Source: Blastocatellia bacterium (lineage in GTDB: Bacteria; Acidobacteriota; Blastocatellia; Chloracidobacteriales; JADJPF01). From it: DNA of 64,000 bases. Position numbers and translations under genes: made by a program. The DNA lies in NCBI GenBank assembly GCA_039812885.1, contig JBDIBI010000019.1, positions 28,275-92,274 of the forward strand, written 5' to 3'. Position 1 is the first letter of the stretch. Each line of letters begins with the position of its first letter. Shown piece by piece: positions 6,917 through 61,095 of this stretch. The notes beneath the pieces are model-generated. The model had not been told where the DNA came from and made no database searches. It worked only from the letters and a program-made list of their open reading frames with translations.

Positions 6917-7029
6917 CTAGGTTGCATTATTTTTTTACAGGATTCGCTATATTAACATCAAAAGCAAAATAAATATACAAAGATTTAGATCAATGTTAGT
7001 TTGTAAAATTGTAAAAGCACAATATATAA

Positions 7030-9270
7030 CTATAAGAATAATTTGTAGTTAGCAGAACTTATTCCATCAACCACTATAGATATAATATTTTCACCAGGCT
7101 TAAGTTTTAGTTTATTTTGCTTACCTTTAAATAATAATTTTTCATTAACTAACTTGGCTTGGCGATCAATCATAGTTCCATTTACAAACAACTTAGCTTT
7201 TTGAGAAAATCCGCTTCCTTCTATTTCTAAACGAGTATCTAAAACAGAATAACGCGCAAAATCTATAGTTAAATCAGTCCCAATATTTAAGTTAGCATCA
7301 CTTGTATCTGTGACAACTGTATTAGAATCAGTAGTATGTACAACAACGCGGAATCGTGCCTTAGCTGTAGCTTTTGAAACTGTAAAATCAAAATTCCTTG
7401 CAGTTGCAGCTAAATTTGTTGCAATAGCTTTAAATGTTGCACCTTCATCCATAGACAAAAGTATATCTTGACTAGTGGCCTTAACAGCTAAAGTATCTAA
7501 GAGATTCCAACGAACTGTAATTTTTTGATCTTTAGGTAAAAAATCTCCACCATTTGGAAAAATAAGAAATAATTCTCTTTGCTTATCTGGAATAGATCCA
7601 AAACTCATAGCAAACCGGTTGACATTAGGTGTTCCCCAGCCTGTACATAAATCATAGCCAGGAGAAGCTTTATAACCAGGTAATGTTGCAGATGCATTAT
7701 TTCCTTCTATTACATCATTAAAAAAACCTGGCAAAGGACTAGCACTCATTTGTTGTATTTGGCCTAACTGGTAAATACGACTGTTAGCATTGCCTAATCC
7801 ATTTGACTTGGTTGCTTGATTGGTTAAAGCTAAAATTCCTGCCCAAACAGGAGCAGAAGTACTAGTTCCACCAAAAACACGAGTTGAACCATCTTGGAAA
7901 ATAAAAAATCCTGGACTAGAAGGATCCGCTAGTAATGCTACATCAGGCACAGTGCGACCAGTTAAAGAGATTCCTGCCGCAGTTTGATAATCAGGACGAG
8001 GGAAAAATACACTTACTCCGCCGCCGCTACCTCTCCAAGCTTGTTCACCTTGATAAGAAGTAACATTTCCATTGTCATCAGTGGCAACTTTTAAAGATGT
8101 GCCTCCTACAGCAGTAACAAAAGGACTTGCAGCTAATGCATTGACTTGTGCTGTTAAACCATCCCCACAATCATTTGCACCTTGATCCCCAGAAGAAACT
8201 ACTACAGTTTGACCTTGTGCTACAGCTTGTTTATAGAGATTATTAAAAAGTGCTTCAAATTGAGGAAAGAGGAATTTTTCACATTCTCCAAAACTAATGC
8301 TTAATACTTTGGTATCAGGTAGTTTATCTAGAAAATATGCTAAAGATTGATCAATATCATTGTCTTTATCCGCTACAGCTACCTGAACAGTTGCTTTAGG
8401 TGCTGCTGCACCAGAAAGTTGTGTATCTATCAATACTTCCACTAGTTCTATACCACCACGGTCTACAATTTGGCCTCCAGCAGGAATTTTTACAACATCT
8501 ACATTAGGTAGCTTAAAAAAGCTCCGGAAATCACTAATATCAGATATATTAAAATCATTTCTAGCTATAATTCCAATTGCTTGACCATTTCCCTCTATAC
8601 CATTGCTAAATAAAGGTTTAAAGTTATAAATAGTATGTAGGTCTTGTGGGCCAATAGAAAAACGCCCTTTATCCATAGCATTAGGTAAAATAACAGTGTT
8701 TTTTTGATGTTTAATGGTTGGTTGGGTAAAAAGAAAATTATGTAGTTTTACATCTAGTACATCTTGAGCAAGATTAACTGGTAAGTAAGCTTGTTCCAAA
8801 TGTCCATAATAAGTTTGATTTTCCATTTCAAATAGCTGCATTTGAACTTGAAAGACTTTTTCAATTTCTGAACTTGGGGCTATGAAATCTAGCCTTAAGT
8901 GATTAGACCAAGTTTGTGATACTTTAATACCAGATTGCTTTAACCAATTTATTGTATTTTCATAAGTAGAGTTTGACGCTCCAAAGCTTTCTCCAAATTC
9001 TCTTGGAGTTAACCAACGATGATAATTAGGGCTATTTGGATCTTGTTGTTCTGCTAGCAAAGCATCTAGTTTATCTTCATCTCTTAGACGAAAGTATATT
9101 GTGCCGGAAATTTCTTTATTAGCTGAGAGGTGTTCTTTAAGCTGGGCTTTAATAGGGATAAAAGGCTTTCCTGAAATTTGTAAGTTTTTAGTTTCTGCTT
9201 GTCCAGAAAATATATTAAAGATTAAGCTAGCAAAGATTATTGCTGTAAGAATTAGTATTTTCCCTCTCAT
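7030..9270 (-). CDS. Secreted S53 (sedolisin/kumamolisin) peptidase with prodomain and C-terminal Ig-like domains
   Basis: Signal peptide; prodomain DPNSPNYHRWLTP.EF; EVLID, SSGD, GGTSTSAP catalytic motifs; Ca-site GYDLCTGWGTP. Confidence 0.92.
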   Translation of the reverse strand: MRGKILILTAIIFASLIFNIFSGQAETKNLQISGKPFIPIKAQLKEHLSANKEISGTIYFRLRDEDKLDALLAEQQDPNSPNYHRWLTPREFGESFGASNSTYENTINWLKQSGIKVSQTWSNHLRLDFIAPSSEIEKVFQVQMQLFEMENQTYYGHLEQAYLPVNLAQDVLDVKLHNFLFTQPTIKHQKNTVILPNAMDKGRFSIGPQDLHTIYNFKPLFSNGIEGNGQAIGIIARNDFNISDISDFRSFFKLPNVDVVKIPAGGQIVDRGGIELVEVLIDTQLSGAAAPKATVQVAVADKDNDIDQSLAYFLDKLPDTKVLSISFGECEKFLFPQFEALFNNLYKQAVAQGQTVVVSSGDQGANDCGDGLTAQVNALAASPFVTAVGGTSLKVATDDNGNVTSYQGEQAWRGSGGGVSVFFPRPDYQTAAGISLTGRTVPDVALLADPSSPGFFIFQDGSTRVFGGTSTSAPVWAGILALTNQATKSNGLGNANSRIYQLGQIQQMSASPLPGFFNDVIEGNNASATLPGYKASPGYDLCTGWGTPNVNRFAMSFGSIPDKQRELFLIFPNGGDFLPKDQKITVRWNLLDTLAVKATSQDILLSMDEGATFKAIATNLAATARNFDFTVSKATAKARFRVVVHTTDSNTVVTDTSDANLNIGTDLTIDFARYSVLDTRLEIEGSGFSQKAKLFVNGTMIDRQAKLVNEKLLFKGKQNKLKLKPGENIISIVVDGISSANYKLFL

Positions 9271-9401: not shown

Positions 9402-10457
9402 ATGGATTCTCCACAATCGAAAACGAAGACTAAAGTAGCTGGAAAAAAAACTTCTTCAGAATCAAGTAGTGATCAAGCAGATATTAAGAAAATTTACGAG
9501 ATTGCCACAGGATTTTGGGCTTCAGGAGCATTGATTGCAGCCATTAAATTGGGAATATTTACAAAGCTAGAAAACAATCCTTCTTCTAGTGATTCCTTAG
9601 CTCGCAAATTAGGCTTAAATAGACGCTGGACTGAAAAATTGCTAACAGCTTGTGCTGCAATGGGAATACTAGAAAAAAGCCAAGATTATTTTAGCAACTC
9701 AGCAACAGCTTCACAGTATTTAGTAGAATATAAGCCACATTACCAAGGAGCTTTTTTACTCCACTTAGGGTCTTTGTGGGAACGCTTTGGCACATTGGCA
9801 AACACTGTTCAAACAGGCTCTCGCAATGATAGTCAAACAACAGAACGTACTGACCAAGAAACTAGCCGAAGTTGGATTCTTAGCTCACATAATGTTGCTA
9901 TGAGTGGTCAGGCAGAAGCCCTAGCAAAGCTTTTAGATCTAGCAAATTACAAACACCTTTGTGATGTAGGTGGTGGGCCAGGCACTTATGCTGCGGTGCT
10001 TTGTCTAAGAAATCCTGAGCTAAAAGCTACTGTTTTGGATGATCCAGAAGTTGTCCCTTATGCTCAAGAAATTATTGAAGCCTCAGGATTAAAAGATCGT
10101 ATAATTGTAAAAGCAGCTCAAGTCCCTTTCCATACTTATGATGAAGAATATGATGTAATGCTAATTTCTGGTGTTTTACATGGCTTTTCAGAAGCAACTT
10201 GTAAGAAAATATTACGTAAAGCTTTTAAAGCATTATCAAGTAATAGCCTTGTAATAATTCAAGAAATGCTCTTAGATGATGAAGAAGCTAAGCCCTTATT
10301 ACCAGCACTATTTAGCTTAAATATGACAATGGGAGAAACCTATACTGCTTCTCAGATTATGTCTTGGCTCTATGATGTGGGTTTTGTAAAAGCAGAAGTA
10401 AAAGAAATTCCTGATGGAACTTGGATGGATCACGTTATTATTGCTAGAAAACCCTAA
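9402..10457 (+). CDS. O-methyltransferase (dimerization domain + Methyltransf_2)
   Basis: CDVGGGPGTY SAM motif; same architecture as 2136..3152; start uncertain (9336/9372/9402). Confidence 0.85.
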   Translation: MDSPQSKTKTKVAGKKTSSESSSDQADIKKIYEIATGFWASGALIAAIKLGIFTKLENNPSSSDSLARKLGLNRRWTEKLLTACAAMGILEKSQDYFSNSATASQYLVEYKPHYQGAFLLHLGSLWERFGTLANTVQTGSRNDSQTTERTDQETSRSWILSSHNVAMSGQAEALAKLLDLANYKHLCDVGGGPGTYAAVLCLRNPELKATVLDDPEVVPYAQEIIEASGLKDRIIVKAAQVPFHTYDEEYDVMLISGVLHGFSEATCKKILRKAFKALSSNSLVIIQEMLLDDEEAKPLLPALFSLNMTMGETYTASQIMSWLYDVGFVKAEVKEIPDGTWMDHVIIARKP

Positions 10458-10474
10458 GCCTTTTATTCAAGAGT

Positions 10475-10585
10475 TTCTGTTCTCAGATTTTAGAGAGCCT
10501 AATTAGTCAGGGTTTTCTGGGTTTTAGATTTTAGAGAGCCTAATTAGTCAGGGTTTTCTGTTTTCAAATTTTAGAAAGCCTACTA
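10475..10585. repeat. ~41-bp tandem repeat, ~2.5 copies
   Basis: AGATTTTAGAGAGCCTAATTAGTCAGGGTTTTCTG at 10485 and 10526; degenerate third start at 10566. Confidence 0.85.
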
Positions 10586-10604
10586 GAAATAACTCAAAAT
10601 AATA

Positions 10605-10675
10605 ATAGTTCGACCCATATTAGCCCGGGGTTTTAGCGAGCTTTAGCGAGCGCAACCCCGGGTTTAGAAGCGCAA
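10605..10675 (-). repeat. REP-like palindromic element, inverted copy of the 82-bp unit at 32.5 kb
   Basis: Reverse complement GCGCTTCTAAACCCGGGGTTGCGCTCGCTAAAGCTCGCTAAAACCCCGGGCTAATATGGGTCGAACTA matches the array unit. Confidence 0.85.
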
Positions 10676-10686
10676 ATCCAAAGGTA

Positions 10687-12477
10687 TTATGGTTGATTAG
10701 TAAGTAATAATTTCCCACCAGATTCTTTTACCAAATGAAATTTATCTTCTCCCAATAATTTTTGTAACCGACCAAACGCAGGTGCTTCCACCAGCAAATA
10801 AAAGCGTTCCGTTTTTAGCCAAAGATCTTTAAATTCTTCATCATTAATAAATACATTTGGAGCTCCTGGAGCATATGAACCATAGGATAGATTTGTAACT
10901 CGTCCATTAAGTAGTAATGCTTGTTTAGGGTTAGTATAAAAAAATACTGTAGAGAAAACATAGTATTGGTTATCTACCACTAATTTTCCTGGAGGAGAGG
11001 CTTTAAGCGCTTCAGCTAAAGGGCGAGAACCTAGATAAGGCTCAAACACAATTAAGGCTTGGGTTGCAGCTTGAAAGAAAATCAACATCGTTACAGTTAA
11101 AAGAACAAAAGCTATGTTCCGATTCCTTTTAGCCCAATACATTGATAATAACCCAACAAAAGTGCTTATTAGCGCTAATACAAGAGGAAACCTTAGATAA
11201 GCAAAGGAATTAAGGTTTAAGTCCCCAAGATGTCCTAATGATAAGGTGTAGACATTATAAACATCTGAACTTTTAGCTAAAGCATTAGAAATATCACCTT
11301 TAGCTACTGAATTTCTTACCAAATAGAGAATAGCCAAAATTGCAATAGCTGAAATTCCAAACACTGTAGTGATAAGCCATCGACCAAATTTAGGCAACTC
11401 TTCCTTTTTACTTAAAGCTATTCCAATTAGTAGTGCTAAGGCTGGATAAATTGGCATTGAATAATATTCTTGTCTAGTTGAAAAACTAAAAAATCCCATT
11501 ACAACAGCTATCCAACATAGAGCTAGCAAAGAAAGTTTCTCAAGTCGGTTTTCTGGCTTTAGGCTAAATTTAAGCGTTTTTAGAGTTGGTAAAAATGCAC
11601 TCCCAGGAAAAAGCCAAAGCAGATTTAATAACCAGAAAGACACTATTGGAACAGTGTTATAATCATGTGGGAAACGTTTACCTAAAAATCTTAGAATATG
11701 TTCATTAAAAATATAAAACCAAAAAAATCCTCTATATTTTCCTGGCTCACTAACCATAGAAAATTCAAAGTATGGCGGATTACGTAAGGTTGCTAGGATA
11801 TGCCAAGGTAATGCTATTATCAAGATAATAGAGATAAATAACGGTAAATTAAGCTTCTTCCAAGTTTCTTTTTGAAATGCTTGTTTGGTTAGAAATAAAT
11901 ATAGCCCAGCTGTACCTAAAGGAAATACTATAGCTATAAATCCTTTCAGTAAAATGCCTAGGCCAATAGAGATAGCACCAGTTACAACCCAATAATTAGG
12001 GGATTTCTCATCATCTATTATTCCTAAAAATGACCATATAGCAGTAGTAATAGTTAGGGTAACTAACACGTCAGGAATTAAGAATCTTGTAAAAAGAAAG
12101 AGTCCAATAGAGCTTGTAATAATTAGGCCAGAGTAAAAGGCTGCTGTTTTTGAGTTTGTAACCCATAAAGCAAAACGAAATACTGCCCAACAAAGCCCAA
12201 CAATTGCTATGGCAACAGCTAAGCGTGCTACCCAATCATGAACACCAAAAACAATATATAGACAAGCCATCATCCAATATTTTAGAGGTGGTTTTTCTAA
12301 GTAAGCAATTCCATTAAGTTTAGCTGTGACCCAATCACCAGATTCAAGCATTGTTCTTGCAATTTGTGCTTGAACCGCATCCACATCATCCATTAAACCT
12401 GGGGGGGAAATACAAGCAGTAAGAAAAATAAAAGCAGCAAGAGCTATTACTATCCATTCATATTTGTCGATTTTCAT
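10687..12477 (-). CDS. ArnT/PMT-family (GT-C) membrane glycosyltransferase
   Basis: ARTMLESGDWVT..LNG..YLEKPPL.YW, LLKG, YYSMPIYPALALL; many TM helices. Confidence 0.9.
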   Translation of the reverse strand: MKIDKYEWIVIALAAFIFLTACISPPGLMDDVDAVQAQIARTMLESGDWVTAKLNGIAYLEKPPLKYWMMACLYIVFGVHDWVARLAVAIAIVGLCWAVFRFALWVTNSKTAAFYSGLIITSSIGLFLFTRFLIPDVLVTLTITTAIWSFLGIIDDEKSPNYWVVTGAISIGLGILLKGFIAIVFPLGTAGLYLFLTKQAFQKETWKKLNLPLFISIILIIALPWHILATLRNPPYFEFSMVSEPGKYRGFFWFYIFNEHILRFLGKRFPHDYNTVPIVSFWLLNLLWLFPGSAFLPTLKTLKFSLKPENRLEKLSLLALCWIAVVMGFFSFSTRQEYYSMPIYPALALLIGIALSKKEELPKFGRWLITTVFGISAIAILAILYLVRNSVAKGDISNALAKSSDVYNVYTLSLGHLGDLNLNSFAYLRFPLVLALISTFVGLLSMYWAKRNRNIAFVLLTVTMLIFFQAATQALIVFEPYLGSRPLAEALKASPPGKLVVDNQYYVFSTVFFYTNPKQALLLNGRVTNLSYGSYAPGAPNVFINDEEFKDLWLKTERFYLLVEAPAFGRLQKLLGEDKFHLVKESGGKLLLTNQP

Positions 12478-46738: not shown

Positions 46739-49700
46739 CTACACATTTCCAAAATGTCTTTGCCAAAGTTTAAGCAAATCAGTTTTATCTTCTTGGAAAA
46801 TAGTAACTAAATTTTCTGGTAGATCTGCTGACATTTCTTCTAAAGCATGTTTTGCTTCACGCAAATAGGTTTTTGCTTCTTGAACTCTGTTTTGGCTAAT
46901 AAAACAGCATCCCATCATTTCAGAAGCTATCATAAGTGGATAGCGGAATTGATTTTCACGTGAAATTGTTCTAGCTTGTCGGCAAATTTCTATTGCTTTA
47001 TCTATTTCATTAGTTTGGAAATAGCATTGACTTAATTTAGCTAAAGCTTCAGCTAGACGATAGCTATACTTTAATGAGGTAATAATATCAATAGCCTGAT
47101 GATAATTGTTAATAGCTTCTTGAAAATTTCCTGTAAGGTATTCTACTTCTGCTAATTCTGTATAAGCTCGGCTGATGTGCAATTTGTTGCGGGATTTTTG
47201 GCTTAGAGCAAGTAGTTGAGAAATAGCTTCTCTAGCAGCAGAAAAGTTTTTTCTATGCAGCAAAACAGGTACCATAGTGCTACGAGCAATAAGTTCTGCA
47301 AATAGATTGATGCCTGCAACTTGTTCTAAAGCACGTTGACAACAATCTTCTGCTAAGTCAAATTGACGACGTTGAGCATAAGTTGTGCCTAACAAACAAA
47401 GTGTTCTGCTATATTGAGAAGTTTCTCCTGCTACTTCAAAATGCTCTAATGAGCGTTGGTAATTTTTAACGGTTTGCCCTAAAAGTCCATACTGAAAGTT
47501 AGAAAGAGCTATTGCTGTATAAGCATAACCTTTGGCTTGAGATGAGTTTCCTGCCATTGCCATTAACCAACGACCTGCACGCTCAAGCTCTTTTACATCA
47601 AAGGATTTAGATAGTGCAAACCCAGCTAAGGCTTCTAAACGTTGTGTATTGTCACGGATACGCTCAAATATTGAAATTGCCTCAGAATAATATTTTTGAG
47701 CACTTTGATAATCGGTAAGTAGTAAATGTACTTGTCCTAATTCTATCAATATAGAACCATGTAGTTGCTCATCTCCGGCTTTTTGGCTAAAAAGTAATGC
47801 TTCTTCTAAATGGCTAAGTGCCACATCTGTTTTACCTTTTAAACCAGCTAAAGAACCTAAATTTAACCGAAAAGTGCTTAATAACCGTAATGATTTTTTA
47901 TCATGCAAATCTGTAGGCATATCTGCTAGTGCAGTTCTAGCCCATTCTAAGTAGTTAGACTGCTCACTAGCTGAACCAGCACGTCTTTCCTGTTCGGCTG
48001 CACGCACAGAAAATTCAAAGGTTTTTTCTGGAACTCCAGCATAGTAGTAATGATAGGCTATTTGGGGGGTTACTTTTTCTATGCTGCTGGCAAAACATTT
48101 TTGTAAGGCTTCAGCAACTCTTTCATGTAATTGTCGTTTTCTACGTTTGCTCAAACCTTCATAAAGCACTTGCTGAACAATTGTATGATGAAAACAATAA
48201 CGATCTTCTGTATGTTGCCCTACTTCATCAATTAGATTGAGTTTAATGGCAGTTTCTATGATATAGGTTAATTCTTCTTCATCTAGCTGAGTTACTGCTT
48301 GCAGAAAAACAAAACCAAACTCATTACCTATTACCGCAGCTTGTGAAAGAACATCTGAAATAGTTTTATCTAAACTTTTAAGCTTTAATTCTATTAAATC
48401 CCCAATGGATTTGGGTAAGTTTGTCTTATCCATCCCTGAGAATTGCCATTTACCATTTTGCTTACGTAGAGTTGAATTATCTAACCAAAGCATCACTAAT
48501 TCTTTGATGAAAAAAGGATTTCCCCCTGTTTCTTGATAAAGCGCATTAAGTAGATCTTGGTTTTGGTCAATTCCTGGACATAGCTGAGAAATCAACATTC
48601 CTACTTCTTGAGCATTAAATGGAGTTAATTTTAATATTTCAACATTTTCTCTGCTTTCTATTTGTTGAAGCCAGGTTTTTAGTGTACGCCCTTCTACTAA
48701 ATCTTCATTACGTATACTAGCAAGAAGCATAACTGGTACATTACTTAAGGTTTTAACTAGATAAGCAAAAGCTAGTAAACTTGCATCATCTGCCCATTGT
48801 ATATTGTCTAGGAAAAATATAATAGGTTTGTGTTTAGCCAAAGCTTTAAGACATCGTCGAATAGCTTCAAAGCTTCTAATAGTTTGTTCTGCACCGCCCT
48901 GCATTTGCAGCAACATATAAGAAGCACGTATAGAATCTCGTTTTTTAAGAGCTTCTTCAATTTCAGCAGTACGTTCACCAAAAATTTCTCCAAGCAACTC
49001 GGTTTTGCCATCTAAAAGAAAATCATTCCAAAAATCACTAAGTGCTTCTAAAAATGTAACAAATGGTAAACCACAAATATTTTCATAGAAACGTCCTGAA
49101 AGAAAACTAGCTTTTTCTTTTACTGAATTGCGGAAATGGCTGACCAAAACACTTTTTCCTTGTCCAGCTTCTCCTGTGATAAAGACTATTTGAGGCTTAT
49201 TGTTTAGAACTAATTGGAAACGTTTTTCTAGTGCTGCTACTTCTTTAACACGTCCAACAAAGCCATGTTGAGCTGTAGACTCTTGATCTACGTTCTCAGC
49301 TGCTTCAGCAATAGTTTTGGCATGTTCACTAGTTGGAGGCTTAAGGGATAATGTGCTAATAGCTGCATCTGTGTCAGATTCAATTAAACGCAAAGCCCTT
49401 ACTAAGGCTAAGGCGTTTTGAAAACGATCTTCTTTACGTTTAGCTAAAGCTCTAGCAATGAAAACATCAAACTCTGAACTCAAGCAAGATCGTAAATGGC
49501 TTGGTGGTGTGACTTCAAGTCGCAAAATAGCAAGCATTCTATCTGCTAAAGTTTTTGCTTGGAAAGGTATATTACCCGTTAGCATTTCGTAGATGGTTAC
49601 ACCTAATGAAAATAAATCACTTCGTTCGTCAACATCTTCTCCACGAACTTGTTCAGGGGACATATAACCAGCAGTACCTTGCATTATTCTTTGGCTATTA

Positions 49701-50233
49701 AATGGGCCAACACGACCCAAGGTACTTTTGCCTTTAGCCTCTTCTATTAGGCTACCTGAAGAGATTTTAGCTAAACCAAAGTCTAAAATTTTCACATAGC
49801 CATCTGGCCGAACAATGATATTTTCTGGTTTAACATCGCGATGAATAATACCTAATGAATGTGCTGCACCTAAACCTTCAGCCACTTGTATAGCAATATC
49901 CATTGCTTCATGAGCTTCTAGTGGCCCTTTGGCAATTTTTTCACGAAGGGTTTCTCCTTCTATTAGCTCCATTGCTATAAAATATTGTCCATTTTCTTGA
50001 CCAACATCATAAATAGTAAGGATATTAGGATGATTTAAACCTGAGGCTGTTATAGCTTCTTGTAAAACAAGATGGTCTATTTCACTATTTGCATTTTTGT
50101 CAGGAGTTAAGATTTTTATTGCTACTTCACGCCCAAGCACTGTATCCAAAGCACGATAGACTGTAGCCATTCCTCCCTGACCAATAAGGGATTTTAGTTT
50201 ATAACGTCCAAAGGTTGATTCCATCTCTACCAT
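46739..50233 (-). CDS. Ser/Thr protein kinase fused to STAND-type AAA ATPase and TPR repeats
   Basis: GQGGMA.VY, VAIK, HRDVKPEN, DFG; FVGR..E, GEAGQGKS, LDNIQWAD, TGGNPFF; C-terminal TPRs. Confidence 0.92.
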   Translation of the reverse strand: MVEMESTFGRYKLKSLIGQGGMATVYRALDTVLGREVAIKILTPDKNANSEIDHLVLQEAITASGLNHPNILTIYDVGQENGQYFIAMELIEGETLREKIAKGPLEAHEAMDIAIQVAEGLGAAHSLGIIHRDVKPENIIVRPDGYVKILDFGLAKISSGSLIEEAKGKSTLGRVGPFNSQRIMQGTAGYMSPEQVRGEDVDERSDLFSLGVTIYEMLTGNIPFQAKTLADRMLAILRLEVTPPSHLRSCLSSEFDVFIARALAKRKEDRFQNALALVRALRLIESDTDAAISTLSLKPPTSEHAKTIAEAAENVDQESTAQHGFVGRVKEVAALEKRFQLVLNNKPQIVFITGEAGQGKSVLVSHFRNSVKEKASFLSGRFYENICGLPFVTFLEALSDFWNDFLLDGKTELLGEIFGERTAEIEEALKKRDSIRASYMLLQMQGGAEQTIRSFEAIRRCLKALAKHKPIIFFLDNIQWADDASLLAFAYLVKTLSNVPVMLLASIRNEDLVEGRTLKTWLQQIESRENVEILKLTPFNAQEVGMLISQLCPGIDQNQDLLNALYQETGGNPFFIKELVMLWLDNSTLRKQNGKWQFSGMDKTNLPKSIGDLIELKLKSLDKTISDVLSQAAVIGNEFGFVFLQAVTQLDEEELTYIIETAIKLNLIDEVGQHTEDRYCFHHTIVQQVLYEGLSKRRKRQLHERVAEALQKCFASSIEKVTPQIAYHYYYAGVPEKTFEFSVRAAEQERRAGSASEQSNYLEWARTALADMPTDLHDKKSLRLLSTFRLNLGSLAGLKGKTDVALSHLEEALLFSQKAGDEQLHGSILIELGQVHLLLTDYQSAQKYYSEAISIFERIRDNTQRLEALAGFALSKSFDVKELERAGRWLMAMAGNSSQAKGYAYTAIALSNFQYGLLGQTVKNYQRSLEHFEVAGETSQYSRTLCLLGTTYAQRRQFDLAEDCCQRALEQVAGINLFAELIARSTMVPVLLHRKNFSAAREAISQLLALSQKSRNKLHISRAYTELAEVEYLTGNFQEAINNYHQAIDIITSLKYSYRLAEALAKLSQCYFQTNEIDKAIEICRQARTISRENQFRYPLMIASEMMGCCFISQNRVQEAKTYLREAKHALEEMSADLPENLVTIFQEDKTDLLKLWQRHFGNV

Positions 50234-55909: not shown

Positions 55910-56578
55910 ATGGTTAAAGCTAGACGATTTACAAAACCATTAATATTAATAGCCCTGCTAATGCTAATTTTCTCAAGCAATTGGGCAATTTTAGCTCGCC
56001 TAGCATTTTTTGCCAGTAATAACTCTTTATCTACCAAAGACGCCTTTTGCTTACCAGTAACAGAACAGGCTATTTCAAACCTTAATGAAGATAGCAGTGT
56101 AGATTTAATCGTTGGTAAAGTTGAAGGAAGTTCCTACAAACTTGAAATCAGTTTAACCGGAAATAACAATAAAGTATCTAACTTTGTTTTAGATCAACCT
56201 AATGTAATAGGATCAAGCTTTTTTACTTGTGATATAGATCAAGATAATGACCAAGATATTGTTGTTGTTAGCCCACTTTCTAATAGACCTATAGCAGTTT
56301 GGCTTAGTGATGGAAAAGGCAATTTTCAACAAGATAAAAGTTATACCAATGATGGTTTTTCTACTAGTGAATCAGATGTTTCCCAGCAAACTCACTTTCT
56401 AGCAGAAAGCCCCATTTCTAATGAAGAACAACGACTTTCTATAGAAAGTACAATACTATCTTTTATTAATCATAAGCTTGAACAAATCTTTGTAGGTACT
56501 TGTACTGTATCTAGTACTTATTCTAGAATCTTTTCAAAACTTATAACCTCTCGCGGGCCTCCTTTTAGTCTTATCTAA
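55910..56578 (+). CDS. Exported FG-GAP/VCBS-repeat protein with C-terminal RGPP arrest-like motif (putative regulatory uORF)
   Basis: Signal-like N-terminus, NLNEDSSVD and DIDQDNDQD..WLSDGKGNF repeats, ends SRGPPFSLI*. Confidence 0.75.
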   Translation: MVKARRFTKPLILIALLMLIFSSNWAILARLAFFASNNSLSTKDAFCLPVTEQAISNLNEDSSVDLIVGKVEGSSYKLEISLTGNNNKVSNFVLDQPNVIGSSFFTCDIDQDNDQDIVVVSPLSNRPIAVWLSDGKGNFQQDKSYTNDGFSTSESDVSQQTHFLAESPISNEEQRLSIESTILSFINHKLEQIFVGTCTVSSTYSRIFSKLITSRGPPFSLI

Positions 56579-56883
56579 TTTCTTACGCACAATCACTATA
56601 ATCCTTTTTATCTAATAGTTATTGTTATTGTGCTCTGCGTATTATTTCTTAGTCTAACAGCTATACTAAATTTTATTTATTCACTTTACTGGTGACTAGC
56701 AAGCTTGATAGTTGCTTGTTTGGAGTAGTTTTCCAATTAGATAGGCGATACATGAAGTTGCCTATGTAAGTTTACCTTTGTTATGTGAATAAAAGTTACA
56801 GTTAATTAAGTAGATTGGATGCTTAAACCTTTAAGTATGCAAATATTTCCATGATTTTTACATATTCTTCTGAGGAGGGAATA

Positions 56884-59800
56884 ATGAAAAAGGGCATTAC
56901 CCTAATTGTATTAGCTATTACATTAATAGTCAGTGCTATTGCACCAGTGCTAGCCCAAGATTTTGCATTTGGTGGAGCTGGCAATGCAAGTATTGGCTTT
57001 AGACAATCTATTCCATTATTAGCAACAGCTTCTAATGGTCAAACTATATCTAACTTAGGTGTTACTGGTGCAGCTAGAACCCCTTCTGCTATTGGCACTC
57101 TAGGAGCTGGTTATCTTAACACCATCCTTGCCACAGGAGCAGGTCGTTTACCTAATGGAAATAACAGTTCTTTTAATGTTGTTGATTTGGGAGTTGGTGA
57201 TGTAGACGGGGATGGGTTTTTAGATATTGTTGCTGTTTCTGATGACAATAACGCTTCTAATCTCAATGTTCGCCAATTTGGTGCTACTATTCCAACTCAG
57301 GCTGCTGGTACTGCTGGCAATGTTGGTAGAGTTACCTTATTTACAGGTATAGGAGATGGAACATTTGGTCTTCCTGTTGCTATTAACACTGCTGTTGGCT
57401 TTTCTCCAAGCTGTGTTGCTATGGGAGATTTTAATGTTGATGGTGCCAGCGAAATTTTAGTTGGCGAATCTAGCCAAGATGGTCAATTTACAGGCAATTT
57501 TGAGATTTTTTCTAGTGGTAATTTAACTAGCCTTGGCTTAGGCACTCCTACTAGTACACCTTCTAGAGTTGCTTCTGTTGCTTTTGGGCGTATAAATGAT
57601 GACCCATTTCCTGATGTTGTACTGGGTTTGAATACACAAGGAGGAGGATCTGGAACTGTATTAGTCTATCCTACTAATGGTAGTCCAACTTTATTAGCTC
57701 CTACAGTTTTAAATACTGCGGGTTCAATAGGTTTTAATGCTATTGCAGGCACTCCTGCCGGAATTATTCCAGCAAACAGAGCAGTAGCCACTTTCCAAAG
57801 TAACTTTCCATTTCCACTAGTTGGTGGTTCAGTAAATACAACTGTTGATGTTGGAGTTGCAACAACATCAGGTTTAGAAATTTTTGAAAACACCACTCCT
57901 CAAAACACTATTCAACCTACATTTGCTGCAAATGGTAATCCATTGCAAAATGGGGGTTTAGGGTTACAAGCAGGAAGTGGGCCAATTGGTATTTTACCTG
58001 GAGATATAAATGGTGACAATATTGAGGATTTAGTGGTTATAAATCGTGGTTCTGGTACAGTAACTTGTTATGTTGCTAACTCTGGAACTCCTGGATATCA
58101 AAGTGCTCGGACTTCTGTTGCTAGTAGTCAACCAACTTCTGGTACTTTCTCCAACTTTGATGGCGATGGCAAACCTGATCTTTTAATTACAGATGCGCTT
58201 AATGGAGTTACTGTATTAAAAGGTAATGGTGATGGGTCTTTTACCAATAAAGGTCTTTTAGCTGAATTAAATGTTACTGGTGAACCAGTATTCAACGCTA
58301 GTGCAGTTGTTAGCGGTGCGTTTGAAACCTTAATTGGTGGTGGTGCTGTTGATGATATCGCTATCGGTGATGGTTTTAGCAACAGTGCTTTAATCGGTGG
58401 TGGTTTATCAGGTGGGGTATATTACTTGTCAGGCTTACGCGGTGATGTTCCTGTTCGTTTAAGACTCTTTACCGCAATATCTTTAGCAGCTGACTTTGAT
58501 GGAACAGGTGGCTTAAATGACATCGCTTTAATGGAACAAGGTAGTGGTACAGTATTTGTTCTATTAAACGTATCTGCAACCAACCCAACTCCAACTGCTA
58601 ACTTGATTACCTTAAGAGACGTATTCACCAACAGAGATTTACGTCCAACTTCTGCTACTTCCTTTGTTGATGCTTTAACCGGCTTGAACGATATCGCTAT
58701 TACAGATGTTGGTACTCCTGAAAACACCAATGGTTCAGGTCAAATCATTGTTGGCTTAAATGATGGTACTGGCGTATTCTCCAACAGAAACCGCTTATTC
58801 CGTCAATTCGTTGCTACTTCTGGTGCCACTAACATTCTAAGTGGTGACTTTAGAAACACTGGTAGAGCTACTGACTTAGCATATGTTGACTATGCAAACA
58901 ACCTAGCTGCTGTTGTCCTAAATGATGGCACTAACTTCTTCTTAACTCCACAAATTCGTGAAACTGGTGGTTTTGTACCTGTTTCCGCAGCATTAGCTGA
59001 CGTAAACGATGACGACAACCTTGATATGGTAGTACTTAACGCTGGTACAGCTCCAAACCAAACAGTTGGTAATCAATCAATTGTGTCAGTTCTATTAGGA
59101 CAAGGTGATGGCCGCTTAATTCCAAGTGGCTCATTGCTAAACGTACCAAACTTTGGTCTATCAATCGTTGGTGGTTTAGCAGTATTAGACTCTACACCAA
59201 TTCGCCGTGTTGTAGACTTCAACGGTGACGGATTCCCAGACTTTGCAGTTAACTCAACTCGTGGTGGTGCAGGCGTTTTAGGCGTTCCAGGTCAACCAGT
59301 TCCAACAGTTACCTTGATTCTAAATCGTGCAGATGCTCCAGGCCAATTTGTTGTACAACCTCCTATCTCCTTGTTTGACGATACAGTTACAACAGGTGCA
59401 GGGAATGCTGTAAACGGTGCAAATATGACCTTGGATGATACAGGCGGCGGCCCAGCATTAGTAGCAGGTCGTGGTGGTCTATCTACATTAGGTTTAACAG
59501 GAGGATTTGGTGGTGCAGGTGTAGGTGGTGCTAATTACACATTAGCAGTATCTGATTTCCAAGCTGATGGTTCTCCAGACTTAGTTGTAACTGGTACTTT
59601 TACGACGCTACAAAATATAGTGGGGCCAGTTACTAACTTGACTCCAACCAACTATCGTGCCGCAATCTACCTAGTAGGAAATGAAACCGCAGGAACAATG
59701 CGTGTATCACGTCCAATGCGTATTAGAGAATTTACTATAAATGGCGCAGGAACATTAACCCCAAGATTCAATGCTGGAGACACCTTTGTAGCTTGTGCAA

Positions 59801-61095
59801 CAGGTAACTTTGCTCCATTTAACAACTTTGTACCAGATGTAGTTCACCTATCTATCAATGGTTCTTTATATTTGGATGCTAATATAACTTCAGTGTTAAA
59901 TCATGCTCCAATAGTAAGAATTAACCGTACAGACTTAGGTTCTCCAGTTGGTAGTGGTCGTAAAGTTATCTTAACTTCTGGTGAAATGAAGTCAATTCCT
60001 GTGACAGGCGCTACTGTTGATGTTCCTGCCAGTACGCTTAAATTCTCATTGGTGCCACCACCAACAAACGAACCACCACCAAGTTTTGTAAAAGTTCAAG
60101 ACAATGGAAACAACACTGCTAATGTTGTTATTGACACTCGCAACAATGGTGCTGGTGTCAATAATGGTCCAGGAAATCTAACTGCTCGTATAGCTGTAAG
60201 AGCAACAGATTCAGGTAATAGTGGGCCAGGTGGACGGCTACCATTGACTGGAGAAGATTTCTTTACATTGATTGTAAAACCAAAATCAGCTCCAACCATT
60301 GCTCCTATAGCTAATGTAAGCTTAGAAGCAGGTAAGAGTCAAAATGTAAATCTTCAAGTAACCGAAAAAGACGGTGGAGCAGTAACAGTAACTCGTTCTT
60401 GTGACAAGAATAGTTATGTGAATATTAGCGGAACTACTCTGTCAATAGCTCCAACAGACGGTGATGTAGGTACAAACACTTGTACATTAACAGCAACCGG
60501 GCCAACAGGCTTATTCTCAACTACTTCTTTTGTTGTAACAGTAAGACCTAGAGTCGTAGCCCCAACAATAGCCAACATTGGGGATCAAACTGTAACCCAA
60601 GGACAAGCAGCTACAGTAAATGTACTAGCAAATGGTTCTCCTAGTGACACCCTAAGATTATCCTTAGCATCAGCACCAGCATTCGTAACTTTGTCTGATA
60701 ACGGAAATGGCACAGGTGTAATTCGTATTGCTCCAACTTTAACAGACACTCAAGGCGGTCGTGTAACAGTAACAGCAACAAATCAAGTAGGGTTGAGTGT
60801 GTCAACTTCCTTTAATGTAACTGTGCAAAAGGCAGTAGTGATTAATGGTGCAGCCTTTGACACTGCTGGCAAACAGTTATTCATTAACGGCAGTGGTTTT
60901 GGAACTTCTGGAGCAAGAATAACAGTTAATGGGCAAGATATTTCTTCTAGAGTAAGTGGTCAATCTGATAGCTCAATTACTGTTAAAGGCAACAAGAAGA
61001 GATTAAACCTCAAGACCGGGCCAAACCAAATTGTGGTTACTTCTAGTGGTATAACTTCTAATACCTTTGTATTGAATTTACTAACTCAAGAGTAA
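56884..61095 (+). CDS. Giant secreted FG-GAP/VCBS beta-propeller protein with Ig/cadherin-like repeats and C-terminal Ig-like domain
   Basis: SD GAGGAGG before ATG 56884; signal peptide ...VLA|Q; many DxD/NxDG..D motifs; APTIA.I....V..G repeats. Confidence 0.88.
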   Translation: MKKGITLIVLAITLIVSAIAPVLAQDFAFGGAGNASIGFRQSIPLLATASNGQTISNLGVTGAARTPSAIGTLGAGYLNTILATGAGRLPNGNNSSFNVVDLGVGDVDGDGFLDIVAVSDDNNASNLNVRQFGATIPTQAAGTAGNVGRVTLFTGIGDGTFGLPVAINTAVGFSPSCVAMGDFNVDGASEILVGESSQDGQFTGNFEIFSSGNLTSLGLGTPTSTPSRVASVAFGRINDDPFPDVVLGLNTQGGGSGTVLVYPTNGSPTLLAPTVLNTAGSIGFNAIAGTPAGIIPANRAVATFQSNFPFPLVGGSVNTTVDVGVATTSGLEIFENTTPQNTIQPTFAANGNPLQNGGLGLQAGSGPIGILPGDINGDNIEDLVVINRGSGTVTCYVANSGTPGYQSARTSVASSQPTSGTFSNFDGDGKPDLLITDALNGVTVLKGNGDGSFTNKGLLAELNVTGEPVFNASAVVSGAFETLIGGGAVDDIAIGDGFSNSALIGGGLSGGVYYLSGLRGDVPVRLRLFTAISLAADFDGTGGLNDIALMEQGSGTVFVLLNVSATNPTPTANLITLRDVFTNRDLRPTSATSFVDALTGLNDIAITDVGTPENTNGSGQIIVGLNDGTGVFSNRNRLFRQFVATSGATNILSGDFRNTGRATDLAYVDYANNLAAVVLNDGTNFFLTPQIRETGGFVPVSAALADVNDDDNLDMVVLNAGTAPNQTVGNQSIVSVLLGQGDGRLIPSGSLLNVPNFGLSIVGGLAVLDSTPIRRVVDFNGDGFPDFAVNSTRGGAGVLGVPGQPVPTVTLILNRADAPGQFVVQPPISLFDDTVTTGAGNAVNGANMTLDDTGGGPALVAGRGGLSTLGLTGGFGGAGVGGANYTLAVSDFQADGSPDLVVTGTFTTLQNIVGPVTNLTPTNYRAAIYLVGNETAGTMRVSRPMRIREFTINGAGTLTPRFNAGDTFVACATGNFAPFNNFVPDVVHLSINGSLYLDANITSVLNHAPIVRINRTDLGSPVGSGRKVILTSGEMKSIPVTGATVDVPASTLKFSLVPPPTNEPPPSFVKVQDNGNNTANVVIDTRNNGAGVNNGPGNLTARIAVRATDSGNSGPGGRLPLTGEDFFTLIVKPKSAPTIAPIANVSLEAGKSQNVNLQVTEKDGGAVTVTRSCDKNSYVNISGTTLSIAPTDGDVGTNTCTLTATGPTGLFSTTSFVVTVRPRVVAPTIANIGDQTVTQGQAATVNVLANGSPSDTLRLSLASAPAFVTLSDNGNGTGVIRIAPTLTDTQGGRVTVTATNQVGLSVSTSFNVTVQKAVVINGAAFDTAGKQLFINGSGFGTSGARITVNGQDISSRVSGQSDSSITVKGNKKRLNLKTGPNQIVVTSSGITSNTFVLNLLTQE

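What the first reader, a model, noticed from the sequence alone, without database searches (positions are those of the whole stretch)
60835..61095. Shared ~80-aa C-terminal domain on two unrelated secreted proteins: candidate lineage-specific sorting/secretion signal
Seen: the extreme C-terminus of the giant FG-GAP protein (VVINGAAF...QLFINGSGF..GARITVNGQDI...KGNKKRLNLKTGPNQIVV..GITSNTFVLNL) aligns by hand with that of the S53 protease at 7030-7272 (LTIDFARY...RLEIEGSGF..KAKLFVNGTMI...KGKQNKLKLKPGENIISI..GISSANYKLFL). About 26 of 80 positions are identical. The two proteins are otherwise unrelated, lie 50 kb apart, and both have Sec signal peptides. Established: T9SS CTDs (70-80 aa, Ig-like) and the Solibacter TIGR03437 domain are terminal tags on diverse secreted cargo. 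Inference: this is an analogous outer-membrane export or surface-anchoring tag with a basic KG.K..L.LK.G.N patch, implying an uncharacterised translocation or attachment system.
Basis: partly seen in the sequence, partly recalled or inferred. Interest (0 to 1): 0.85.

Follow-up and report, generated by a model that had tools for sequence, protein, structure and literature searches.

The report
Shared C-terminal tag on secreted proteins
About forty otherwise unrelated secreted proteins of this soil-type acidobacterium all end in the same small, positively charged immunoglobulin-like domain, which looks like an undescribed address label for delivery to, or attachment at, the cell surface.

Summary
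The last ~82 residues of the FG-GAP protein (window 60829-61092, +) and of the S53 peptidase (7033-7278, -) align at 27/82 identities, E 7e-10.

A profile of just these two tails finds 44 ORFs in the 8.8-Mb genome, 41 ending within 7 residues of the stop codon. All 40 full-length ones have signal-peptide-like N-termini. Cargo falls into about 10 unrelated architectures.

The domain is a divergent IPT/TIG beta-sandwich (AF2 pLDDT 94.6). It carries a conserved Lys-rich loop and has a median pI of 10.1, against 5.3 for its cargo. No Pfam or NCBIfam model covers it, and it matches no T9SS CTD, PEP-CTERM or TIGR03437 model.

It occurs in 18 of 41 related Blastocatellia genomes, at 0 or at least 7 copies in all but one of them. 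It is rare outside the class: 6 of 301 Acidobacteriota sampled. The sister family f5 lacks it apart from one borderline match in G029 (E 8.7e-4), and carries 38 to 53 TIGR03437 tails per genome instead. Distant S53 homologues also bear TIGR03437.

Best reading: a lineage-specific C-terminal targeting or anchoring tag. No machinery was found, and export versus anchoring is unresolved.

The parts
56851..61095 (+). Gene for the 1414-aa secreted FG-GAP/VCBS-type beta-propeller protein with a He_PIG Ig domain. This is cargo 1; the likely true start is the ATG at 56884.
   Evidence: ORF list and translation. Pfam FG-GAP_3 7.6e-21, FG-GAP 4.2e-11, He_PIG 5e-06. 55 of 60 close homologues carry the same tail within 12 aa of their C-terminus.
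56884..56955 (+). Signal-peptide-like N-terminus of cargo 1: a basic start, a hydrophobic core, then ..VLA|QD. The extent is approximate.
   Evidence: Translation. Mean Kyte-Doolittle 3.44 over the best 10-aa window. This is a heuristic only; no dedicated predictor was available.
60829..61092 (+). C-terminal tag domain (CTD) of cargo 1: the last 88 aa, a seven-strand IPT/TIG-like beta-sandwich that ends 0-6 aa before the stop codon.
   Evidence: BLASTP against the S53 tail, E 7e-10. First row of alignment A1. AF2 pLDDT 94.6, strands 4-11, 16-22, 30-33, 42-45, 49-53, 64-72 and 80-84. Foldseek and VIA best matches are IPT/TIG domains.
60985..61014 (+). Conserved Lys-rich loop (KGNKKRLNLK) between strands 5 and 6 of the CTD.
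   Evidence: Translation. Positions 53, 56, 57 and 58 are basic in 76-86% of 42 copies; G54 86%, L59 88%, N66 100%. The model shows no strand at 54-63, with block pLDDT 96-97.
7030..9270 (-). Gene for the 746-aa secreted S53 (sedolisin/kumamolisin-type) peptidase. This is cargo 2.
   Evidence: ORF and translation. Pfam Pro-kuma_activ 7.5e-26, Peptidase_S8 6.4e-07. All 23 of 23 homologues with at least 44% identity carry the CTD.
7033..7278 (-). C-terminal tag domain of cargo 2: the last 82 aa, ending at the stop codon. Its Lys-rich loop is at about 7099-7128.
   Evidence: Translation; BLASTP; second row of A1. It groups with the CTD of the second S53 paralogue, L032, at SH-aLRT 95.
9199..9270 (-). 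Signal-peptide-like N-terminus of cargo 2. The extent is approximate.
   Evidence: Translation. Mean Kyte-Doolittle 3.13. Heuristic only.

Best explanation
The two tails are copies of an undescribed, lineage-restricted subfamily of the IPT/TIG immunoglobulin-like fold. It is used as a single-copy, extreme-C-terminal tag on Sec- (occasionally Tat-) exported proteins of one part of the class Blastocatellia (Acidobacteriota).

Proposed working, with status of each step:
1. The cargo crosses the inner membrane by its N-terminal signal peptide. The signal-like N-termini are shown; export is inferred.
2. The ~80-aa tag folds as a compact seven-strand beta-sandwich directly behind the last cargo domain. 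This is shown by prediction only.
3. Its conserved, exposed Lys-rich loop (consensus KGNKKKLNLKKG) and its free C-terminal hydrophobic strand (22/42 end in F) are bound by a partner common to all ~40 cargo proteins. This step is inferred.
4. Binding brings proteases, esterases and propeller-type adhesin-like proteins to one extracytoplasmic destination. This step is inferred.

I put about 0.55 on 'a tag with a common partner'. Within that, about 0.3 is for non-covalent retention on an anionic envelope or matrix polymer. That option is favoured by tag pI 10 against cargo pI 5, and by a related domain sitting just behind the signal peptide in another family. About 0.25 is for a recognition signal for outer-membrane translocation or processing, as with the T9SS C-terminal domain.

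The tag appears to be the functional counterpart of the equally uncharacterised TIGR03437 'Solibacter C-terminal domain' used by sister lineages.
For: (1) Number and position.
- A two-sequence profile finds 44 of 19,839 ORFs; 41/44 end within 7 aa of the stop, with exceptions at 12, 16 and 54 aa.
- After iteration, 44 C-terminal ORFs remain, 41 within 8 aa.
- Among the best 150 of 1.84 billion representatives, 129 have a domain of at least 40 bits, and 121 of those end within 10 aa of the C-terminus.
- In 20 loci from four other genera and one genome outside the class (GC 46-69%), 22/22 matches of at least 18 bits end within 6 aa of the stop.

(2) One copy per protein in G000, unlike ordinary tandem TIG arrays. 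Those arrays appear only as weak multi-stretch hits.

(3) 40/40 full-length G000 members have signal-peptide-like N-termini. Members in other genera do too, one with an RRGML Tat-like motif.

(4) Cargo diversity.
- G000: 12 NHL propellers; 11 WD40/BNR-like propellers with Big_7; 8 in the FG-GAP cluster (Pfam-checked in L011 and L021; L008 showed only a weak Big_9 match) plus the FG-GAP singleton L033; 2 sortilin/BNR; 2 S53; 1 M10; 1 DUF7453; 2 unknown.
- Elsewhere: S8 subtilases, beta-helix, dioxygenase, esterases and M12.

(5) Mostly all-or-none phyletic pattern. 18/41 relatives have it; 17 of them hold 7-52 matches and the 18th (G029) a single borderline one; 23 have none. In a phylum sample, 6/301 genomes match at E<=1e-8.

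(6) Alternative tails on the same cargo. 23/23 S53 homologues with at least 44% identity carry this tag. Among the 96 more distant ones, 10 carry TIGR03437 and one carries IPTL-CTERM, at the C-terminus.

(7) Complementary distribution. The four f5 genomes have 38-53 TIGR03437 matches each and no CTD, apart from one 8.7e-4 hit. CTD-positive genomes have only weak TIGR03437 hits, E>=8.8e-7, and in G000 those lie outside the CTDs. There is no overlap in the phylum sample either: 6 against 14 genomes of 301.

(8) Charge. Median CTD pI is 10.1 with net charge +6. Median cargo pI is 5.3.

(9) The tag is under purifying selection, like the other accessory domains of S53 orthologues.
Against: - No partner or machinery was identified.
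  - SprA, T9SS-CTD and PEP-CTERM models find nothing in G000, but their control genomes were also silent.
  - Secretins occur in 40/41 relatives regardless of the tag.
  - TonB-dependent-receptor-like and kinase/TPR neighbours are not clearly enriched: 10 against 5.7 expected, and 25 against 18.1.
  - The window neighbours are housekeeping genes.
- The fold is an ordinary IPT/TIG. Such domains often serve as plain spacers or sugar-binding modules.
- 31 of the 40 cargoes belong to three paralogous families, so part of the count reflects gene-family expansion rather than independent fusions. The CTD tree is poorly resolved: 5 of 38 branches are starred.
- A related domain with a VK.KKL motif sits N-proximally in seven 456-492-aa TIG proteins, so terminal position is not absolute for the wider family.
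- The tag is joined to the preceding domain by only 2-12 residues, with no conserved cleavage motif.
- The tag is not more conserved than the S53 catalytic domain.
- The complementarity with TIGR03437 rests on few, phylogenetically clustered genomes. Expected chance overlap in the phylum sample is only about 0.3 genomes.
- Signal peptides were judged by a crude heuristic.
Confidence: 0.55

Rival explanations
1. An ordinary accessory IPT/TIG domain with no common partner. It would act as a structural cap or spacer, a folding or solubility helper, or a substrate- or polymer-binding module, as PPC/PKD/CBM-type domains do on exoenzymes. It would have been spread by paralogous expansion of a few families and by shuffling of an 'Ig + CTD' cassette. 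Its terminal position would then reflect ancestry, not function.
For: - Fold and remote sequence similarity are plain IPT/TIG. Best matches are CGTase/maltogenic-amylase domain D (Z 11.2), Bacteroides SGBP-B TIG domains (Z 9.2-9.4) and plexin/Met IPT. 23/42 copies hit Pfam TIG.
- 31/40 cargoes lie in three paralogous families.
- The same He_PIG-like Ig module (..QGGRVTV..TSFNVTV..) precedes the tag in FG-GAP, NHL and sortilin proteins, suggesting transfer of a two-domain cassette.
- Linkers are short and no cleavage motif is seen.
- No machinery was found.
Against: - Spacer-type Ig domains are usually internal or tandem. This subfamily is single-copy and ends within a few residues of the stop in 41/44, 121/129 and 22/22 cases, across genomes of 34-69% GC.
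- It sits on enzymes and propellers alike.
- The mostly all-or-none genome pattern, the replacement by TIGR03437 on the same cargo and in sister genomes, and the conserved basic loop on acidic cargo are not expected of a neutral spacer.
- Two short records in the representative library consist of a signal or lipoprotein-like leader plus the tag alone: P0075 (135 aa) and P0137 (123 aa).
Confidence: 0.3
2. A docking module for a type IV filament (T2SS or type IV pilus-like) machine. The tag would let periplasmic cargo be picked up by a pseudopilus tip or by the secretin and be pushed out or displayed.
For: - In G000, all 9 members of the ~750-aa tagged propeller family that have 8 kb of flanking sequence lie beside a repeated gene set.
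- On C34, C77, C81 and C41 this set is read as three prepilin-like (N_methyl) genes, then a 375-416-aa single-pass membrane protein, then the tagged gene. On C34 and C64 these genes are preceded by PilO-like, T2SSE ATPase and T2SSF genes.
- The second-best structural match (Z 10.7) is DR_1364/GspP, an IPT/TIG lipoprotein that forms a belt around the Deinococcus secretin by electrostatic contacts (PMC10828601, passages read).
- G000 has secretins but no detectable T9SS.
Against: - With single-protein queries, the cassette proteins are found only in family f1: 9/41 genomes. The tag occurs in 18/41.
- No prepilin-like motif lies within about 8 kb of 22 tagged genes in other genera.
- The other ~30 tagged genes of G000 are not near pilin genes.
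- Secretins are equally present in tag-negative genomes.
- The GspP match is a generic fold match of the same strength as the match to amylase domain D.
Confidence: 0.08

Closest known systems
TIGR03437 'Soli_cterm' (Solibacter uncharacterized C-terminal domain; NCBIfam paralog_domain)
   Same: - Acidobacterial, and placed at the extreme C-terminus of many different signal-peptide proteins, with dozens of copies per genome: 38-53 in the f5 genomes.
- Built of TIG-like modules.
- Borne by homologues of the very same S53 cargo: 10 of 119, with P0195 matching 1019-1231 of 1231.
- Its distribution is complementary to this tag within the class.
- As far as I recall its function is also unknown. No paper in the held library contains the accession.
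   Different: - It is 225 positions long (two modules) against about 80.
- None of the 42 tags matches the model at E<=0.1.
- Profile-profile comparison gives probability 3% over the last 26 columns only.
- It lacks the Lys-rich loop.
- It is widespread in other classes of the phylum (14/301), whereas this tag is nearly confined to part of Blastocatellia (6/301).
Type IX secretion C-terminal domain (T9SS CTD, TIGR04183 / PF18962)
   Same: An ~80-aa Ig-like beta-sandwich at the extreme C-terminus of diverse Sec-exported proteases, adhesin-like and propeller proteins, present in tens of copies per genome, in all-or-none lineages. These properties of the T9SS CTD are recalled from general knowledge, not from a call.
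   Different: - There is no sequence match: 0 of 42 tags at E<=0.1, and 0 matches in the genome.
- No SprA translocon was found (control silent).
- The best structural matches are IPT/TIG domains, and no T9SS CTD is among the rows listed.
- Cleavage and lipid attachment are unknown here.
Canonical IPT/TIG domains (Pfam PF01833), e.g. CGTase domain D, Bacteroides SGBP-B N-terminal domains, Deinococcus GspP (DR_1364)
   Same: - The fold is the same: Z 8-11, rmsd 2.5-3.1 over 76-83 residues.
- There is remote sequence similarity: 23/42 at E<=0.1.
- Pattern shared across the alignments: ..L.I.G.GF...V.VN....
   Different: - The two window copies score below Pfam's gathering cut-off (16.5 bits, and no hit at all).
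- The tag has a family-specific basic loop between strands 5 and 6.
- It is single-copy and strictly terminal rather than tandem or internal.
Bacterial pre-peptidase C-terminal domain (PPC, PF04151) and similar C-terminal beta-sandwich modules of exoenzymes
   Same: A small beta-sandwich appended to the C-terminus of secreted peptidases and other exoproteins of Gram-negative bacteria (recalled).
   Different: - PPC is not among the families listed for the 42 tags at E<=0.1.
- One tagged protein (L073) has a weak PPC-like stretch upstream of the tag, so the two can coexist.
- PPC is not confined to the last residues of a protein (recalled).

Membership tests
IPT/TIG (Pfam PF01833, E-set) | Sequence match to PF01833 at or above its gathering score (20.9 bits) | tested here: inconclusive
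   The FG-GAP tail scores 16.5 bits (E 0.0088-0.01), below the cut-off. The S53 tail has no TIG hit at E<=1. Across the genome's 42 copies, 23 match at E<=0.1, best 5.7e-06.
IPT/TIG (Pfam PF01833, E-set) | Seven-strand Ig-like beta-sandwich superposable on solved IPT/TIG domains | tested here: met
   AF2 model with pLDDT 94.6 and seven strands. Foldseek best hits are 8co1 GspP, CGTase domain D, Sec5 and plexin IPT. VIA-align Z 11.2, 10.7, 9.4 and 9.2 against IPT/TIG domains. The ESM Atlas nearest clusters are named IPT/TIG, from Acidobacteriota.
T9SS C-terminal domain (TIGR04183 / PF18962) | Match to the Por_Secre_tail model | tested here: not met
   The model is not among the families listed for the 42 tags at E<=0.1 in Pfam or NCBIfam. 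The genome gives 0 matches of 43 candidates scored (the control genomes were silent).
T9SS C-terminal domain (TIGR04183 / PF18962) | Genome encodes the T9SS translocon (SprA) | tested here: inconclusive
   TIGR04189 gives 0 candidates in G000 (95.9% complete), but the model rang in none of the 14 control genomes either. Other T9SS parts were not searched.
T9SS C-terminal domain (TIGR04183 / PF18962) | Extreme C-terminal position on many diverse signal-peptide cargo proteins | tested here: met
   41/44 within 7 aa of the stop. 40/40 with signal-like N-termini. About 10 cargo architectures.
T9SS C-terminal domain (TIGR04183 / PF18962) | Tag removed by a sortase-like peptidase and cargo attached to the surface | not testable with these tools
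   This needs proteomics of mature proteins.
TIGR03437 Soli_cterm | Match to TIGR03437 at or above 29.05 bits | tested here: not met
   Neither window tail hits at E<=1. None of the 42 hits at E<=0.1. The genome's weak TIGR03437 matches (at most 27 bits singly) lie in other proteins. hhalign of A1 against 10 TIGR03437 tails gives probability 3%.
TIGR03437 Soli_cterm | Acidobacterial paralogous C-terminal domain on many unrelated secreted proteins | tested here: met
   The S53 cargo family bears either tail.
PEP-CTERM / IPTL-CTERM-type sorting signals | Short C-terminal motif followed by a hydrophobic helix and a basic tail | tested here: not met
   The tails end in a beta-strand of the folded domain, and 29/42 end in F or L. 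TIGR02595 gives 0 matches in the genome (controls silent).
Pre-peptidase C-terminal domain (PF04151) | Match to the PPC model | tested here: not met
   PPC is not among the families listed for the 42 tags at E<=0.1.

The most novel reading that the evidence does not exclude
This tag and the long-known but unexplained TIGR03437 domain are interchangeable address labels of an undiscovered acidobacterial pathway. That pathway would carry folded exoproteins across, or fix them onto, the outer membrane. It would be a functional analogue of the type IX secretion C-terminal-domain system that arose independently from the IPT/TIG fold, with the Lys-rich loop and the free C-terminal strand as the recognition element.
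Probability: 0.25. Interest if true: 0.85.

Novelty: new variant of a known kind. Interest (0 to 1): 0.55.

Why it matters
Acidobacteria are among the most abundant soil bacteria. They are thought to live largely by secreted hydrolases and surface proteins, yet how they sort proteins beyond the inner membrane is barely known.

A domain that marks about 40 exoproteins per genome gives three things:
- a ready predictor of the surface and secreted proteome in these mostly uncultured lineages;
- a handle for finding the unknown partner, through pull-downs, reporter fusions or phylogenetic profiling over the 18 positive and 23 negative genomes;
- a first functional clue to TIGR03437, which appears to replace it in sister lineages.

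If the partner is a translocon or an attachment enzyme, this would be a new protein-sorting route. If it is an envelope polymer, it would be a new non-covalent surface-display module, also usable as a tool.

Tried and rejected
1. Known sorting systems. TIGR04189 (SprA), TIGR04183 (T9SS CTD) and TIGR02595 (PEP-CTERM) found nothing in G000. The control genomes did not ring, so this is weak.

2. Conserved neighbours as machinery. Within 8 kb of the tagged genes the recurrent neighbours are Ser/Thr-kinase/TPR proteins, TonB-dependent-receptor-like OMPs and TPR proteins. These are large families and are not clearly enriched: 25 against 18.1, and 10 against 5.7 expected. I rejected them as chance.

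3. Candidate partners by phyletic pattern.
- The 416-aa and 431-aa proteins of the pilin cassette occur in only 9/41 genomes, all f1.
- The C-terminal part of the 470-aa TIG family occurs in 7/41.
- Secretin occurs in 40/41.
None tracks the tag (18/41).

4. Complex prediction. I sent the 416-aa cassette protein (residues 66-406), the 431-aa pilin-like protein (45-426) and the tag of the adjacent 750-aa protein. The verdict was 'no answer' (score 0.00, mark 0.32, controls not run). This counts neither for nor against binding.

5. Homology to TIGR03437. hhalign gave probability 3%.

6. CTD tree against cargo class. The 750-aa family and the S53 pair each form a clade. NHL and FG-GAP tags interleave, but only 5 of 38 branches are well supported, so I draw no conclusion on the number of independent fusions.

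7. Cleavage motif or linker. None was seen in the 30 residues upstream of 38 tags.

8. Literature. No paper was found for 'TIGR03437' or for 'Blastocatellia' plus 'TIG domain'. The search 'Acidobacteria / C-terminal sorting / secreted proteins' listed nothing relevant by title or abstract (listing only). Supplements were not consulted.

10. VIA-align and Foldseek listed no T9SS CTD among the rows shown. This does not exclude fold similarity.
Full report
**1. Observation**

The window holds two relevant genes.
- A 1414-aa ORF at 56851..61095 (+) carries FG-GAP_3, FG-GAP and He_PIG domains.
- A 746-aa ORF at 7030..9270 (-) carries a pro-kumamolisin activation domain and a weak subtilase match, which makes it an S53 peptidase.

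Their last 86 residues align by BLASTP at 27/82 identities, E 7e-10. The rest of the two proteins shares no Pfam family, and they fall into different clusters in an all-against-all BLAST of cargo parts. Both start with a basic-hydrophobic-AQ/GQA signal-peptide-like segment. That judgement rests on my own hydropathy heuristic, not on a dedicated predictor.

**2. How common and how positioned**

The window lies on contig C19 of an 8.79-Mb, 131-contig genome of 34.4% GC.

- I built a profile from the two tails alone and searched all 19,839 stop-to-stop ORFs of at least 60 aa. It found 44 ORFs at domain i-E<=1e-3. Of these, 41 have the match ending within 7 residues of the stop codon; the exceptions are at 12, 16 and 54 residues.
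- Four rounds of iteration gave 51 ORFs. The same 44 have the domain at the C-terminus, 41 of them within 8 aa.
- The other 7 ORFs are 456-492 aa long and carry the match just behind the signal peptide. These seven are genuine Pfam TIG proteins. Their first domain carries a related VK.KKL motif.
- Four of the 44 are fragments at contig ends or a short remnant. All 40 full-length ones have signal-peptide-like N-termini.
- Each protein has one copy of the domain.

**3. Cargo**

The cargo parts cluster into groups of 12, 11, 8, 2 and 2, plus five singletons. By Pfam they are:
- NHL-repeat propellers;
- a ~750-aa family with a WD40/BNR-like propeller and Big_7;
- FG-GAP proteins;
- sortilin/BNR proteins;
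- the two S53 peptidases;
- an M10 metallopeptidase;
- an FG-GAP singleton (L033), a DUF7453 protein and two small unknown proteins.

In 55 tagged representatives from public data, NHL (29) and FG-GAP (8) dominate. Esterases, S9/S15 and M12 peptidases and sortilin-like proteins also occur.

In other genera I found S8 subtilases (3), a beta-helix protein, a dioxygenase-like protein with a Tat-like RRGML leader, and several proteins with no Pfam match.

**4. What the domain is**

The 42 aligned copies (A1) share this pattern..P.IT.A.Y...L.I.G.GF.....V.VN.K.VS......LKGNKKKLNL.KG.N..V.V.G..SN.F.F.

Conservation and composition:
- Two Asn are invariant.
- I5, L17, G21 and S77 are at least 90% conserved.
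- Positions 53 and 56-58 are basic in 76-86% of copies.
- Twenty-two of 42 copies end in Phe and 7 in Leu.
- The median pI of the tag is 10.1 with net charge +6. The cargo median pI is 5.3.

Pfam finds only sub-threshold TIG similarity for the FG-GAP tail (16.5 bits against a cut-off of 20.9) and nothing for the S53 tail. Of the 42 copies, 23 hit TIG at E<=0.1, best 5.7e-06. NCBIfam gives no T9SS, PEP-CTERM or TIGR03437 match. It gives only weak hits to a 'choice-of-anchor Z' repeat, in 16/42.

AlphaFold2 with A1 gives a confident seven-strand sandwich (pLDDT 94.6). The Lys-rich segment forms an ordered non-strand connection between strands 5 and 6.

Structural matches:
- Foldseek and an all-against-representatives VIA-align search put IPT/TIG domains on top.
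- These are maltogenic amylase/CGTase domain D (Z 11.2), chain A2/Q2 of 8CO1 (Z 10.7), Bacteroides SGBP-B TIG domains (Z 9.2-9.4), and the NFAT, Sec5, Met and plexin IPT domains.
- The 8CO1 chain is DR_1364 'GspP', an IPT/TIG lipoprotein belt around the Deinococcus secretin (PMC10828601, passages read).
- The PDB sequence profile search gave only E 0.0086, to an IPT/TIG protein of Bacteroides.
- The ESM Atlas neighbours are 'IPT/TIG domain-containing protein' clusters from Acidobacteriota.

So the fold is known. The subfamily has no curated model in the Pfam or NCBIfam copies searched.

**5. Distribution**

Names attached to homologues place the genome among Blastocatellia/Acidobacteriota MAGs.

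Among 41 genomes of the class, including G000, 18 have matches. Seventeen hold 7-52 each, one has a single borderline hit, and 23 have none. By family the counts without G000 are:

| Family | With a match / searched |
|---|---|
| f1 | 8/8 |
| f2 | 4/14 (two genera yes, two no) |
| f7 | 3/3 |
| f9 | 1/1 |
| f5 | 1/4 (one weak hit) |
| f3, f4, f6, f8 | 0 |

In an even sample of 301 genomes of the phylum, 6 match at E<=1e-8, and five of those are in the class (only up to 18 candidates per genome were scored there).

In 1.84 billion representative proteins the profile finds 900 at E<=1e-3 and 363 at E<=1e-10. Of the best 150:
- 129 have a domain of at least 40 bits, and 121 of these end within 10 residues of the C-terminus;
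- the other 8 have tails of 11-59 residues;
- the remaining 21 are long tandem-TIG proteins with weak partial matches.

Of 92 tagged representatives that start with Met and are at least 150 aa long, 69 have a signal-like N-terminus. The other 23 mostly begin inside repeats and look like truncated gene calls; that is my reading.

In 20 loci fetched from four other genera and one genome outside the class (GC 46-69%), all 22 matches of at least 18 bits end within 6 residues of the stop.

**6. Alternative tails on the same cargo**

For the S53 peptidase:
- all 23 homologues with at least 44% identity carry the tag, 22 of them within 6 aa of the end;
- none of the 96 more distant ones does;
- ten of those carry a TIGR03437-type tail, and my own scan confirmed it for two: P0195 at 1019-1231 of 1231, and P0234 at 713-902 of 904;
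- one carries IPTL-CTERM.

For the FG-GAP protein, 55 of 60 close homologues carry the tag within 12 aa of the end. One has a 25-aa extension, one is truncated and three end differently. None of 60 distant FG-GAP proteins has it.

Tag-positive genomes have only weak TIGR03437 matches. In G000 those weak matches lie in the 470-aa TIG proteins and elsewhere, not in the tags.

In the phylum sample, the 6 tag-positive and the 14 TIGR03437-positive genomes do not overlap. The expected chance overlap is only about 0.3, and relatives are not independent.

Profile-profile comparison of the two tails is not significant (probability 3%).

**7. Search for a partner**

- T9SS SprA, T9SS CTD and PEP-CTERM models find nothing in G000 (controls silent).
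- The window neighbours of both genes are an RND pump, an M28 peptidase, adenine deaminase, Sir2, an SDR, PhyH and exonuclease VII.
- Recurrent neighbours across all tagged loci are large families without clear enrichment.

There is one exception. All 9 members of the ~750-aa family that have flanking sequence lie beside a repeated gene set. On C34, C77, C81 and C41 this reads as three prepilin-like genes, a 375-416-aa membrane protein, then the tagged gene. On C34 and C64 the prepilin genes are preceded by PilO-like, T2SSE and T2SSF genes.

With single-protein queries, those cassette proteins are found only in family f1: 9/41 genomes. No prepilin motif lies near 22 tagged genes of other genera. 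Secretins are in 40/41 genomes. So the cassette is a family-level context for one cargo class, not the general partner.

**8. Other checks**

- In S53 orthologues the tag diverges about as fast as the pro-domain and the middle domain, and faster than the catalytic domain.
- The tag follows the preceding domain after 2-12 residues, without a conserved motif.
- In FG-GAP, NHL and sortilin proteins the preceding domain is the same He_PIG-like Ig module.
- A tree of the 42 tags groups the 750-aa family and the S53 pair, but is otherwise poorly resolved.

**9. Interpretation**

What is shown:
- a distinct, basic, single-copy IPT/TIG-derived domain at the extreme C-terminus of about 40 signal-peptide proteins per genome;
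- conservation in that position across genera of very different base composition;
- absence from most of the phylum;
- replacement by TIGR03437 on the same cargo and in sister genomes.

What is inferred is that it works as a tag bound by one common partner. I give this 0.55. I split it between electrostatic retention on an anionic envelope or matrix polymer (about 0.3) and a recognition signal for outer-membrane passage or processing (about 0.25).

The main rival is an ordinary accessory TIG domain spread by paralogy (0.3). It is weakened by the positional rule, the mostly all-or-none genome pattern and the alternative tails. It is not excluded, because no partner was found. A role in docking to type IV filament machines is a minor rival (0.08).

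**10. Novelty and score**

The fold and the general idea of C-terminal domain tags are known. This subfamily, its Lys loop, its restriction to part of Blastocatellia and its complementarity with TIGR03437 appear undescribed:
- no model covers it in the Pfam (2025) or NCBIfam (June 2026) copies searched;
- the three literature searches found no paper.

I rate it a new variant of a known kind, with interest 0.55.

Supplementary files were not consulted.

Noticed in passing
L056 (G000:C34:33359-38000) + L081 (C34:38001-46000); the same order on L086 (C64), L082 (C77), L083 (C81), L084 (C41), L085 (C11): A repeated type-IV-filament gene set. The order is: a 515-aa unknown, PilO-like, T2SSE ATPase (687 aa), T2SSF, three prepilin-like genes, a 375-416-aa single-pass membrane protein rich in conserved Cys, an HTH_3 gene on the other strand, then a ~750-aa secreted propeller+Big_7 protein ending in the tag. 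There are about 9-11 partial or full copies, several on short contigs, so the repeat probably broke the assembly. The cassette proteins were found only in family f1 (9/41 genomes). G000 has just two secretin genes.
   Followed up: partly
L017, L018, L027, L029, L034, L038, L039 (G000 contigs C21, C26, C40, C4, C50, C60, C61): Seven paralogues of 456-492 aa. Each has a signal peptide, a tag-like TIG domain with a VK.KKL motif, a canonical TIG domain, and a ~260-aa C-terminal domain with no Pfam match. Three copies are 95-98% identical in that domain. The family was found only in genera g1 and g4 (7/41 genomes).
   Followed up: partly
G000 loci L003, L011 (window ~60730-60830), L016, L024, L026, L035, L042: The same He_PIG-like Ig module (..QGGRVTV..A.TSFNVTV..) lies directly before the tag in FG-GAP, NHL and sortilin-type proteins. 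This suggests that a two-domain 'Ig + tag' cassette moved between cargo families.
   Followed up: no
None of them has the tag studied here, apart from one borderline match in G029 (E 8.7e-4).
   Followed up: partly
L069 (G027:C12:170000-188000), about 3518-11865, minus strand: Three tagged genes lie in a row on one strand (750, 482 and 615 aa). A fourth ORF between them (437 aa) has only a partial 14.5-bit match, which may be a decayed copy.
   Followed up: no
L080:8845-9903 (-) (G010:C72): A 353-aa tagged protein with a dioxygenase-like domain and a twin-arginine-like leader (RRGML). If real, the tag also rides on Tat-exported, pre-folded cargo.
   Followed up: no
L052 and L054 (genome contigs records titled 'uncultured Clostridia bacterium'): Two of the four close tag matches in genome contigs carry a Clostridia label, although the tag, at 66-70% identity, otherwise belongs to Acidobacteriota/Blastocatellia records. 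The label looks doubtful.
   Followed up: no
window 55910-56578 (+) and 46739-50233 (-): A 222-aa ORF with one FG-GAP_3 repeat lies just upstream of the giant FG-GAP gene. A 1164-aa Ser/Thr kinase-AAA-TPR protein lies 6.6 kb upstream and belongs to a family of about 239 members in this genome.
   Followed up: partly
P0075 (135 aa) and P0137 (123 aa), representative-library proteins: Short proteins that consist of a signal or lipoprotein-like leader, a short linker and the tag alone, with no cargo.
   Followed up: no
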